IMG/VR virus record: IMGVR_UViG_3300013101_003214 | Reading direction: 5' to 3' (one strand) | Length of the DNA: 13,150 nucleotides | Origin: a virus | In this document: one piece after another, positions 10,189 through 10,302 of the stretch | Position numbering within the stretch: the stretch's first letter is position 1 | How the letters are laid out: every line of letters starts with the position of its first letter | The notes under the pieces: generated by a model | Database searches by the model: none | Told to the model about the DNA's origin: nothing | Seen by the model: only the letters and a program-made list of their open reading frames with translations | Translations under genes and position numbers: made by a program

Positions 10189-10302
10189 GATAGGAGCCTA
10201 CACGCACAATAGTAGGTTCGATTCCTGCGCTATCCGCCCAGCGGACAGCATGCTCGATGGCCGAGCACTTGATTGATACTCAAGCTGACTTCAGCTCCTA
10301 TC
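10189..10302 (+). other. second circularly permuted tRNA-like unit (Ile GAT-like) clamped by a 9-bp long-range helix
   Basis: T-arm gtagg-ttcgatt-cctgc plus gctatcc (10212-10235); 7-nt linker; then ggacagc, D-arm gctc-gatggcc-gagc, anticodon arm cttga-ttGATac-tcaag, variable ctgac (10243-10289). Flanks GATAGGAGC (10189-10197) / GCTCCTATC (10294-10302) are exact complements. Confidence 0.35.

What the first reader, a model, noticed from the sequence alone, without database searches (positions are those of the whole stretch)
10189..10302. Apparently circularly permuted tRNA gene (Ile GAT-like) closed by an exact 9-bp long-range helix
A T-arm plus 3' acceptor strand (gtagg-ttcgatt-cctgc gctatcc, 10212-10235) is followed after 7 nt by the matching 5' acceptor strand ggacagc (6 of 7 bp). 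Behind that come a canonical D-arm gctc-gatggcc-gagc, a perfect anticodon arm cttga-ttGATac-tcaag and the variable loop, but no T-arm. The 3' half therefore precedes its own 5' half. The sequences flanking the whole unit, GATAGGAGC (10189-10197) and GCTCCTATC (10294-10302), are exact reverse complements. They would clamp the two transcript ends together at the variable-arm position. This is the arrangement of permuted or split tRNA genes in red algae and archaea. It is not expected in a bacterial or phage context. A rearrangement remnant is the alternative.
Basis: partly seen in the sequence, partly recalled or inferred. Interest (0 to 1): 0.65.

Follow-up and report, generated by a model that had tools for sequence, protein, structure and literature searches.

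The report
Permuted tRNA mimic in phage array
A phage tRNA gene cluster contains a real, well-folded tRNA look-alike whose back half is encoded before its front half; it most resembles the known bacterial and phage "YrlA" Y-RNA tRNA mimics, not the spliced permuted tRNA genes of algae and archaea.

Summary
At 10212-10284 a T-arm and 3' acceptor strand precede the matching 5' acceptor strand, D-arm and a GAT anticodon arm. The 9-bp clamp is exact and extends to a 19-nt inverted repeat (10179-10197 / 10294-10312). ARAGORN calls the rotated sequence tRNA-Ile(GAT), and a covariance model built from rotated ordinary tRNAs scores it 47.3 bits.

No bulge-helix-bulge motif can form at the termini. The window already has an ordinary tRNA-Ile(GAU) at 10997-11067. 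The element is not a copy of any neighbouring tRNA. The one syntenic relative found lacks it at this position.

The layout is not foreign to phages. It matches YrlA-type Y RNAs, described in the literature as resembling circularly permuted tRNAs with closed acceptor stems. The window holds two more such modules (about 9613-9700 and 9711-9781), one conserved in the relative. A covarying family of such RNAs sits in other phage tRNA arrays beside a Ro-like protein.

The element fails the sequence-model tests for YrlA, keeps a full anticodon arm, and has no Ro-like gene within the 13 kb. Best reading: a new variant of a known kind of tRNA mimic. A decaying relic remains a serious rival.

The parts
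10179..10184 (+). Outer closing helix, 5' strand (GTGTCC)
   Evidence: Pairs with GGACAC 10307-10312 in the MFE fold of the whole gap and of 10176-10315. Part of inverted repeat I2.
10185..10188 (+). Internal loop, 5' side (AATC). TCCAATCGATAGG (10183-10195) matches the V-hairpin region of a phage YrlA-like RNA family at 12 of 13 positions.
10189..10197 (+). Inner closing helix (the 'clamp'), 5' strand GATAGGAGC
   Evidence: Exact reverse complement of 10294-10302. Paired in the MFE fold.
10198..10211 (+). Unpaired linker CTACACGCACAATA in the variable-region position. It begins with CTAC, a YUAY like the conserved YrlA element.
   Evidence: YUAY from PMC4201824.
10212..10228 (+). T-arm GTAGG / TTCGATT / CCTGC
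   Evidence: Canonical T-loop with 5 of 5 stem pairs (one G-U). An orphan: not inside any called tRNA.
10229..10235 (+). Acceptor 3' strand GCTATCC
   Evidence: 6 of 7 Watson-Crick pairs with 10243-10249.
10236..10242 (+). Acceptor-closing loop GCCCAGC. G73 followed by CCC, not CCA. G10236-C10242 and C10237-G10241 can extend the stem to 9 bp with a CCA triloop.
10243..10249 (+). Acceptor 5' strand GGACAGC. The predicted RNase P site lies 5' of G10243.
   Evidence: The RNase P inference is by analogy with M. smegmatis YrlA.
10250..10266 (+). Positions 8-9 (AT, non-canonical) and D-arm GCTC / GATGGCC / GAGC, which can extend to a 6-bp hairpin
10267..10284 (+). A26 plus a complete anticodon-type arm CTTGA / TTGATAC / TCAAG (U33, GAU, A37)
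10285..10293 (+). Unpaired linker CTGACTTCA
10294..10302 (+). Inner closing helix, 3' strand GCTCCTATC
10303..10312 (+). Internal loop ACTC and outer closing helix 3' strand GGACAC. It ends 9 nt before tRNA-Pro(tgg) at 10322.
9711..9781 (+). Sister module B. Closure GCGGA/TCCGC at the anticodon-stem position, T-arm 9720-9736, closed 7/7 acceptor 9737-9758, TA, D-arm 9761-9775.
   Evidence: Descriptor hit. Clean cloverleaf when folded alone. Rfam YrlA 19.5 bits, E=0.066. Coordinates.
9613..9700 (+). Sister module A. Closure CTGGG/CCTGG, T-arm 9622-9638, weakened and expanded acceptor hairpin, TC, D-arm 9680-9694. Orthologous to L126 1703-1644.
   Evidence: Alignment with L126. The L126 copy folds to a clean cloverleaf and has G-CCA after its acceptor 3' strand. 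Coordinates.

Best explanation
The element (about 10179-10312, + strand) is a tRNA-derived, circularly permuted tRNA-like non-coding RNA of the YrlA / Y RNA-like kind, carried as a cassette in a phage tRNA array. It is not a gene for a spliced and re-ligated tRNA.

Shown:
- It folds as a cloverleaf whose acceptor stem is closed by a short loop.
- Its ends are held by an interrupted 15-bp helix that leaves from the variable region.
- The same T-arm, closed-acceptor, D-arm order occurs twice more in the same array.
- The same order occurs in a covarying RNA family in other phage tRNA arrays.

Inferred:
- It is co-transcribed with the array and released by processing of its neighbours: 3' maturation of the Ala-like tRNA that ends 4 nt upstream, and RNase P cleavage at tRNA-Pro 9 nt downstream.
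- Its T-loop/D-loop elbow and 7-bp acceptor make it a substrate for tRNA-recognising enzymes.
- Like M. smegmatis YrlA, which also has a 7-bp acceptor, it may be cut by RNase P 5' of G10243. The upstream piece would then be trimmed and given CCA, leaving two pieces held together by the acceptor stem and the clamp.
- It acts by binding a tRNA-recognising protein (a Ro-like protein or another), not by decoding.
For: - Architecture and fold.
- tRNA-likeness of the parts.
- Literature definition of YrlA: 5' strand, YUAY, V, T, closed AS, D, 3' strand; found in 22 phages; M. smegmatis YrlA is cut by RNase P and gets CCA; D. radiodurans Y RNA is co-transcribed with a tRNA. YrlA is described as a permuted tRNA with a closed acceptor.
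- Two further modules in the window, one scoring 19.5 bits on Rfam YrlA.
- One module is conserved at the syntenic site in relative L126, with a compensated closure and G-CCA after the acceptor 3' strand.
- L093, L083 and 14 further distinct IMG/VR sequences carry such RNAs in or next to tRNA arrays. All have 7-bp closed acceptors. 9 of 29 pairs are compensatory. A hairpin follows the D-arm after 1 nt, and the closure leaves from the variable region, as in the element.
- A Ro-like DUF2828/DUF7788 gene accompanies those RNAs in 8 loci.
- TCCAATCGATAGG in the element matches that family's V hairpin at 12 of 13 positions.
- The element is not a copy of any neighbouring tRNA (identity 67% or less), and an ordinary tRNA-Ile(GAU) already exists.
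- No promoter or terminator signal above chance, which fits co-transcription.
Against: - Rfam's YrlA model gives no hit at E<=10.
- A model of the phage family scores the element 20.5 bits. That is no better than ordinary tRNA junctions (22-27 bits) and far below the independent positive control L093 (50.7 bits).
- The conserved YrlA core (UA linker and the A14/A21 equivalents) is replaced by AU, G and C.
- The GNCGAAN0-1G Rsr-binding motif is only approximated (ATCGATAGG).
- No TROVE or DUF2828/DUF7788 gene lies in the 13-kb window or in the relative's 16 kb.
- The element is absent from the syntenic position in the only relative found, so there is no conservation or covariation evidence for this particular unit.
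- Classic YrlA has no anticodon loop, while this element keeps a perfect one.
Confidence: 0.5

Rival explanations
1. Non-functional relic. The unit is a by-product of cassette shuffling or duplication and deletion inside a fast-evolving tRNA array: the 3' part of one copy of a tRNA followed by the 5' part of the next. It is still intact enough to fold but is not used.
For: - Absent from the syntenic Glu-Pro gap of the only relative, where an unrelated 113-nt unit sits. That unit is in a different gap in the window, so cassettes do move.
- The array contains clear debris: an orphan T-arm, 3' acceptor strand and ACCA at 9318-9345, after an inserted PD-(D/E)XK endonuclease gene.
- The window's module A looks degraded compared with its L126 ortholog.
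- Non-canonical A8, G14 and C21, a C4-A69 mismatch, and CCC instead of CCA.
- An ordinary tRNA-Ile(GAU) is already present.
Against: - All four arms are intact, with no stem-breaking changes apart from one acceptor mismatch.
- Duplication and deletion does not explain the 19-nt inverted repeat that brackets the unit exactly, nor the two extra pairs extending the acceptor hairpin.
- There is no parent gene. Identity to any tRNA in the window or in L126 is 67% or less.
- The same permuted order recurs three times here and is under purifying and compensatory selection in other phages.
Confidence: 0.25
2. A genuine permuted (split) tRNA-Ile(GAU) gene that yields a decoding tRNA. This would be either a two-piece molecule, opened by RNase P in the acceptor loop, given CCA and held together by the acceptor stem and the 15-bp clamp (as permuted ssrA genes give two-piece tmRNA), or a molecule whose termini are joined by a phage or host RNA ligase.
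For: - The rotated sequence is a complete cloverleaf called tRNA-Ile(gat) by ARAGORN and scores 47.3 bits on the rotated-tRNA model.
- The anticodon arm is perfect: 5 bp, 7-nt loop, U33, A37.
- The acceptor is 7 bp with G73-C74-C75, the features RNase P recognises.
- M. smegmatis YrlA shows that bacterial enzymes open such a loop and add CCA.
- Bacterial two-piece tmRNAs from permuted genes are an accepted precedent (references in PMC3978253).
- The syntenic ordinary tRNA-Ile(GAU) has an unusual C33.
Against: - No BHB motif, and no known bacterial pathway for joining such termini.
- No RNA ligase or kinase gene in the window.
- The clamp joins the core through 14-nt and 9-nt unpaired linkers, not as a tight variable arm.
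- U8, A14 and A21 are all replaced. The discriminator is G, not the A73 used by bacterial IleRS (own knowledge of E. coli identity elements).
- A redundant ordinary gene exists, and the element is not conserved in the relative.
Confidence: 0.1
3. A miniature mobile element or recombination site. In this reading the 19-nt inverted repeats are terminal inverted repeats of a MITE-like cassette that happens to carry tRNA fragments.
For: Imperfect 19-nt terminal inverted repeats bracket a 134-bp unit. The unit is present or absent between related arrays. Homing-type endonuclease genes (HNH, PD-(D/E)XK) are in the window.
Against: The arms occur only once in the window and not at all in L126. There is no target-site duplication (flanks CTAA / CTTC). 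The repeats are placed exactly where a structural closing helix is expected in this class of RNA.
Confidence: 0.03

Closest known systems
YrlA (Y RNA-like A; Rfam RF02553), the Ro60/Rsr-bound tRNA mimic of bacteria and mycobacteriophages (PMC4201824; bioRxiv 10.1101/312249)
   Same: The gene order is T-arm, loop-closed acceptor stem, D-arm, enclosed by a helix formed from the 5' and 3' ends. There is a YUAY-like CTAC after the 5' strand, a canonical T-loop and a D-loop GG. It can be encoded by phages and co-transcribed with tRNAs. Its 7-bp acceptor matches M. smegmatis YrlA, which is cut by RNase P and gets CCA.
   Different: It keeps a full anticodon arm, and the closing helix leaves from the variable region instead of replacing the anticodon stem. 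The linker is AU, not UA. G14 and C21 replace A14 and A21. The T and D stems are not the near-invariant YrlA sequences. There is no Rfam hit and no Ro60/TROVE gene within the available 13 kb.
YrlA-like RNA family found here in IMG/VR phage tRNA arrays (L083, L133-L151; alignment A5), next to a DUF2828/DUF7788 Ro-like gene
   Same: It sits inside a phage tRNA array. It has a 7-bp closed acceptor with a 4-7 nt loop, a hairpin one nucleotide after the D-arm, and a closure leaving from the variable region. It shares the TCCAA-N-CGATAGG motif (12 of 13).
   Different: The family model scores it only 20.5 bits, which is the level of ordinary tRNA junctions. The order and spacing of the V motif differ (17 nt from the T-arm rather than 2). 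The anticodon-type arm is full-sized. No partner gene is seen.
Circularly permuted tRNA genes of Cyanidioschyzon merolae, green algae and Thermofilum pendens (PMC3978253)
   Same: The 3' half is encoded upstream of the 5' half on the same strand with a short intervening sequence, and the rotated sequence is a cloverleaf.
   Different: There is no BHB motif at the termini, the context is phage or bacterial with no splicing endonuclease, an ordinary isoacceptor gene is present, and the core bases are non-canonical.
Two-piece tmRNA from circularly permuted ssrA genes (Keiler et al. 2000; Sharkady and Williams 2004, cited in PMC3978253)
   Same: This is a bacterial precedent for a permuted tRNA-like gene whose product works as two base-paired pieces without ligation.
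   Different: The element has no tag reading frame or pseudoknots. The window's own tmRNA (2277-2605, minus strand) is an ordinary one-piece gene.

Membership tests
Circularly permuted tRNA gene (algal/archaeal type) | 3' half upstream of 5' half on one strand, joined by a short intervening sequence | tested here: met
   T-arm and 3' acceptor strand at 10212-10235, 7 nt, then 5' acceptor strand, D-arm and anticodon arm at 10243-10284.
Circularly permuted tRNA gene (algal/archaeal type) | Rotated sequence forms a tRNA cloverleaf | tested here: met
   ARAGORN calls tRNA-Ile(gat). Rotated-tRNA model gives 47.3 bits over the full length. Caveat: A8, G14 and C21 are non-canonical.
Circularly permuted tRNA gene (algal/archaeal type) | Bulge-helix-bulge motif (strict or relaxed) formed by the termini of the precursor | tested here: not met
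   Exhaustive search of 10170-10213 against 10283-10321 found 0 strict and 0 relaxed candidates. Shuffles gave 0.19 and 2.7. The actual closure is 6 bp, a 4x4 loop, then 9 bp.
Circularly permuted tRNA gene (algal/archaeal type) | Circular RNA intermediate and a mature aminoacylated tRNA | not testable with these tools
   Needs RNA from infected cells.
YrlA / Y RNA-like (RF02553) | Order 5' strand, V, T stem-loop, closed acceptor stem-loop, D stem-loop, 3' strand, with the ends paired | tested here: met
   compared with the description.
YrlA / Y RNA-like (RF02553) | Score on the curated covariance model | tested here: not met
   No hit at E<=10. For scale, against a gathering score of 69: the Bxz1 locus next to Ro scores 32.5 bits, L093 37.6 and L083 26.4, and window module B 19.5.
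YrlA / Y RNA-like (RF02553) | Conserved tRNA-core nucleotides (UA linker, A14/A21 equivalents, D-loop GG, T-loop) | tested here: inconclusive
   T-loop TTCGATT and D-loop GG are present. The linker is AT, and positions 14 and 21 are G and C.
YrlA / Y RNA-like (RF02553) | GNCGAAN0-1G Rsr-binding motif in the 5' strand | tested here: inconclusive
   ATCGATAGG at 10186-10194 matches 4 of 6 specified positions. The similar motif in L083 is the V hairpin, not the Rsr-binding strand.
YrlA / Y RNA-like (RF02553) | Ro60/TROVE gene within about 4 kb on the same strand | tested here: not met
   No TROVE, vWA_Ro60 or DUF2828/DUF7788 in the ORFs of the window. Only 10 kb upstream and 2.9 kb downstream are available, and every contig found ends at or close to the window's ends.
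YrlA / Y RNA-like (RF02553) | Bound by Rsr; modified by TruB and DusA | not testable with these tools
   Biochemical.
   R2 scores: element 20.5 bits, module B 21.1, tRNA junctions 22.5-26.7, positive control L093 50.7.
MITE-like mobile element | Terminal inverted repeats with multiple copies and target-site duplication | tested here: not met
   Inverted repeats are present, but the arms are unique in the window, absent in L126, and there is no target-site duplication.

The most novel reading that the evidence does not exclude
The element is a working split tRNA-Ile(GAU). RNase P opens the acceptor loop at C10242/G10243. The upstream piece is trimmed and receives CCA. The two pieces, held by the acceptor stem and a 15-bp clamp in place of a variable arm, are aminoacylated and decode AUY codons without any ligation. 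That would be the first two-piece decoding tRNA from a permuted gene outside archaea and algae.

A still more speculative variant: these tRNA-like RNAs are the RNA partners of the phage-encoded major-vault-protein homolog 3 kb away.
Probability: 0.08. Interest if true: 0.85.

Novelty: new variant of a known kind. Interest (0 to 1): 0.45.

Why it matters
If functional, the element extends the YrlA type of tRNA mimic to a form that keeps a complete anticodon arm and a 7-bp, RNase P-competent acceptor. It would be carried, along with two simpler sister modules, inside a phage tRNA array.

The side finding may matter more. A covarying family of such RNAs sits in many uncultivated phage tRNA arrays next to a DUF2828/DUF7788 protein whose only detectable similarity is to Ro60. 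Together these suggest that tRNA-mimicking Y-like RNAs are a regular, under-annotated part of phage tRNA islands.

It also shows that standard tRNA callers both miss these units and mis-call around them. These RNAs may act in RNA repair or quality control, or as decoys in phage-host conflicts over tRNA.

Tried and rejected
- Near and distant BLAST of the region against deposited phages: no match.
- Protein-anchored scans of IMG/VR with three window proteins: no relatives.
- A generic pattern for T-loop, short spacer and the tRNA-Ile 5' half in IMG/VR: 116 of 120 hits were ordinary tandem tRNAs and none was permuted.
- Extending the genomic context to look for Ro60, RNA ligase or kinase genes: every contig found ends at or close to the window's ends.
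- The MVP homolog as an anchor: most relatives are bacterial or lack arrays. Only the P0002 lineage (L126, L127, L130) is syntenic.
- Anchor scan with tRNA-Pro: none in IMG/VR, and one in the JGI metagenomes that is the same phage as L126.
- My structural descriptor alone is not specific in tRNA-rich DNA. Neighbouring tRNAs pair 6 of 7 by chance about 6% of the time, so partner-less halves had to be required.
- Covariance models (rotated tRNA; phage family) also score tandem tRNA junctions through local alignment, so they confirm tRNA-likeness but cannot prove family membership.
- I first read the motif shared with L083 as a possible Ro-binding site. Rfam's alignment shows it is the V hairpin, so I withdrew that reading.
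- I considered and dropped a permuted group I intron-exon arrangement, because the flanks are far too short. I also dropped an RNase III or terminator role for the closing helix, because no terminator-like signal was found.

Full report
**Context.** The window is a phage-like tRNA island. ARAGORN finds 27 tRNAs and a tmRNA, and Rfam agrees for most of them. The flanking genes are a major-vault-protein homolog, GroES, thymidylate kinase, an HNH endonuclease, a PD-(D/E)XK endonuclease and a peptidoglycan-binding protein. The sequence is not in the deposited phage collection. Metagenome assemblies reproduce it at 100% identity, including one contig that spans the finding, and all contigs found end at or close to the window's ends, so no further context is available. 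The finding lies in a 285-nt gap between tRNA-Glu(ttc) and tRNA-Pro(tgg).

The clamp is larger than described: a 19-nt, 84% complementary inverted repeat (10179-10197 / 10294-10312), made of 6 bp, a 4x4 internal loop and 9 bp. The acceptor strands can pair for 8 of 9 positions, closing the stem with a CCA triloop. The minimum-free-energy fold of 10185-10306 is a cloverleaf with a closed acceptor and an open, clamped variable region (z = -4.2).

ARAGORN calls the rotated sequence tRNA-Ile(gat). I built a covariance model from 84 ordinary tRNAs rotated in silico at the same point, taken from this window, the relative and other phages, with the element left out. It scores the element 47.3 bits over its full length, second best in the window. 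Acceptor strands from different tRNAs of this window reach 6 of 7 Watson-Crick pairs in only 1.4% of combinations. A descriptor for the T-arm, closed acceptor and D-arm layout has no hits in 300 shuffles.

One caveat applies. In tRNA-dense DNA, both the descriptor and the models also pick up junctions between two complete neighbouring tRNAs. What sets the element apart is that its T-arm has no 5' partner half and its D-arm and anticodon arm have no 3' partner half.

**It is not the algal or archaeal kind of permuted tRNA gene.** Those genes are defined by a bulge-helix-bulge motif at the junction of the precursor's termini, splicing-endonuclease cleavage and a circular intermediate (PMC3978253). 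An exhaustive search of the element's terminal strands found no strict or relaxed BHB, where shuffles give 0.19 and 2.7.

The element is also not this phage's tRNA-Ile. Rfam finds an ordinary tRNA at 10997-11067, which I read as tRNA-Ile(GAU) with an unusual C33. It is the syntenic homolog of the relative's tRNA-Ile(gat). The rotated element is at most 67% identical to any tRNA of the window or the relative, and its acceptor stem is unrelated to theirs. So it is not a fresh rearrangement of a neighbouring gene. Its core is non-canonical (A8, G14, C21, a C4-A69 mismatch, discriminator G, and CCC rather than CCA).

**Comparative evidence.** The MVP homolog led to one syntenic relative lineage: L126, L127 and L130, with MVP 42% identical and the same MVP-tmRNA-Tmk order and tRNA order. 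Its Glu-Pro gap does not contain the element. It holds a small ORF, a conserved non-canonical tRNA-Ala(UGC)-like unit, and a 113-nt tRNA-shaped unit whose homolog in the window lies in a different gap (9423-9533). Cassettes therefore move within these arrays. This particular element has no conservation or covariation support.

**The layout recurs.** The window holds two more modules with the order T-arm, loop-closed acceptor, D-arm.
- Module B (9711-9781) folds alone into a clean cloverleaf closed at the anticodon-stem position. It scores 19.5 bits on Rfam's YrlA model.
- Module A (9613-9700) is orthologous to a module at the syntenic Ala(ggc)-Ser(cga) site in L126. The L126 copy has a compensated closing helix, and its acceptor 3' strand is followed by G-CCA.

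**This is a known kind of RNA.** Chen et al. describe YrlA as a 5' strand with an Rsr-binding motif, then YUAY, a V region, a T stem-loop, a closed acceptor-like stem-loop, a D stem-loop and a 3' strand. They found it near Ro60 in 254 bacteria and 22 phages. M. smegmatis YrlA, with its 7-bp acceptor, is cleaved by RNase P and receives CCA, and its two halves stay bound to Rsr. [quoted passage not shown] Rfam's YrlA model is strict, with a gathering score of 69 bits. The Bxz1 locus upstream of the Ro gene scores only 32.5 bits.

**A wider phage family.** Filtering the descriptor hits for partner-less halves exposed modules in unrelated IMG/VR phages: L083 (two, inside its array), L093 and L057. 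Rfam YrlA scores 37.6 bits on L093 and 26.4 on L083.

A motif shared by L083 and the element (CCAANCGATAGG followed by a T-arm) retrieved 20 IMG/VR loci. Eighteen of them carry one RNA family embedded in tRNA arrays. Its consensus has a closing helix, V hairpin, T-arm, 7-bp closed acceptor, UA, D-arm and a mini hairpin one nucleotide after the D-arm. It has 29 pairs, 9 of them with compensatory double changes, including 5 of the 7 acceptor pairs.

A protein of about 470 aa with DUF2828 and DUF7788 domains accompanies the RNA in 8 loci. Its only detectable similarities are weak ones to Ro60: PDB 'TROVE domain-containing protein' at E=0.011, and the MIDAS motif aligned to the start of Bxz1 Ro's vWA_Ro60 domain.

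In this family the closing helix leaves from the variable region and a hairpin occupies the anticodon-arm position. That is the same topology as the element.

**Limits on membership.** The element fails Rfam's YrlA model. A model built from the phage family alone scores the independent control L093 at 50.7 bits. It scores the element at only 20.5 bits and module B at 21.1, which is the level of ordinary tRNA junctions. Rfam's alignment shows that the shared motif is the V hairpin, not the Rsr-binding strand, so it argues for relatedness and not for Ro binding. No Ro-like gene is present in the window or in the relative's 16 kb. The element therefore resembles a YrlA in layout, but I cannot file it as a sequence-level member of that family.

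**Most likely mechanism** (inferred unless marked as shown). The array is co-transcribed, since no promoter or terminator signal exceeds chance. Maturation of the Ala-like tRNA 4 nt upstream and RNase P cleavage at tRNA-Pro 9 nt downstream would release an RNA of about 135-145 nt. The fold into a closed-acceptor cloverleaf clamped by a 15-bp interrupted helix is shown in silico. Its 7-bp acceptor with G73-C74-C75 makes cleavage by RNase P 5' of G10243 plausible, followed by trimming and CCA addition, as in M. smegmatis YrlA. The likely function is as a protein-binding tRNA mimic and not as a decoder.

**Rivals:**
- A relic of cassette shuffling (0.25).
- A working two-piece or ligated tRNA-Ile (0.10).
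- A MITE-like element (0.03). Its arms are unique and there is no target-site duplication.

**Verdict.** The element is a new variant of a known kind of RNA, of moderate interest.

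Noticed in passing
window 10106-10174: An unannotated non-canonical tRNA-Ala(UGC)-like cloverleaf, missed by ARAGORN and by Rfam. It has G3:U70, a short D-like arm CCAG/CTGG, anticodon loop CTTGCAA and an odd T-loop AGCGTTA. 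It is conserved in L126 (about 1093-1022, minus strand, ending ACCA), with 3 of 21 pairs showing compensatory changes.
   Followed up: partly
window 9423-9533; L126 1017-905 (minus strand): A conserved tRNA-shaped unit of about 113 nt. It has a 7-8 bp acceptor-like closure, a D-like arm, a central region of about 60 nt, and a T-like arm with loop AGCATAG. 5 of 28 pairs are compensatory. It sits in different gaps in the two phages and has no Rfam match at E<=5. Its identity is unknown.
   Followed up: partly
window 9613-9700 and 9711-9781; L126 1703-1644 (minus strand): Two further permuted modules (T-arm, closed acceptor, D-arm) lie between tRNA-Ala(ggc) and tRNA-Ser(cga). One is conserved in the relative, where its acceptor 3' strand is followed by G-CCA. 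ARAGORN's tRNA-Ser(cga) call at 9557-9646 overlaps the real tRNA-Ala(GGC) at 9538-9608 and module A's T-arm, so it is probably a false call.
   Followed up: yes
L083, L093, L133-L151 (IMG/VR contigs): A widespread, covarying YrlA-like RNA family is embedded in phage tRNA arrays. In 8 loci it is accompanied by a DUF2828+DUF7788 protein of about 470 aa, whose only (weak) similarity is to Ro60/TROVE-vWA. All members score below Rfam's YrlA gathering threshold. This may be an undescribed Ro-like RNP of phages.
   Followed up: partly
window 10997-11067, 10918-10990, 12700-12771, 12772-12843: Several tRNAs are missed by one or both callers: tRNA-Ile(GAU) with C33 (found by Rfam only); a homolog of L126's tRNA-Val(tac) (neither caller); and two tRNA-shaped units ending in ACCA, one with anticodon loop CTACGAA (Arg-ACG-like) (neither caller). 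Standard tools under-call this array.
   Followed up: partly
window 8864-9346: A PD-(D/E)XK endonuclease ORF (8890-9306) followed by an orphan tRNA 3' fragment (T-arm 9318-9334, acceptor 3' strand and ACCA) forms an insertion between tRNA-Lys(ctt) and tRNA-Asp(gtc). Those two genes are adjacent in L126. It looks like a homing or mobile insertion.
   Followed up: no
window 4636-7293 (minus strand): An 885-aa major-vault-protein homolog (MVP shoulder domain) in a phage-like context. The order MVP, tmRNA, thymidylate kinase is conserved in L126. Its closest homologs are about 43% identical and mostly in Myxococcota-like bacteria. Its relation to the nearby tRNA-like RNAs is unknown.
   Followed up: partly
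window 12061-12223 and 10048-10102: Two other bracketed units. A 13-nt, 92% complementary inverted repeat encloses a 137-nt structured gap between tRNA-Thr(cgt) and tRNA-Gln(ttg). An 18-nt imperfect hairpin lies just after tRNA-Glu. Neither is explained.
   Followed up: no
window 11079-11152 and 10150-10166: A variant T-loop, AGCATTA or AGCGTTA in place of TTCGAAT, recurs in tRNA-His, in the Ala-like tRNA and (as AGCATAG) in the 113-nt unit, in both phages.
   Followed up: no
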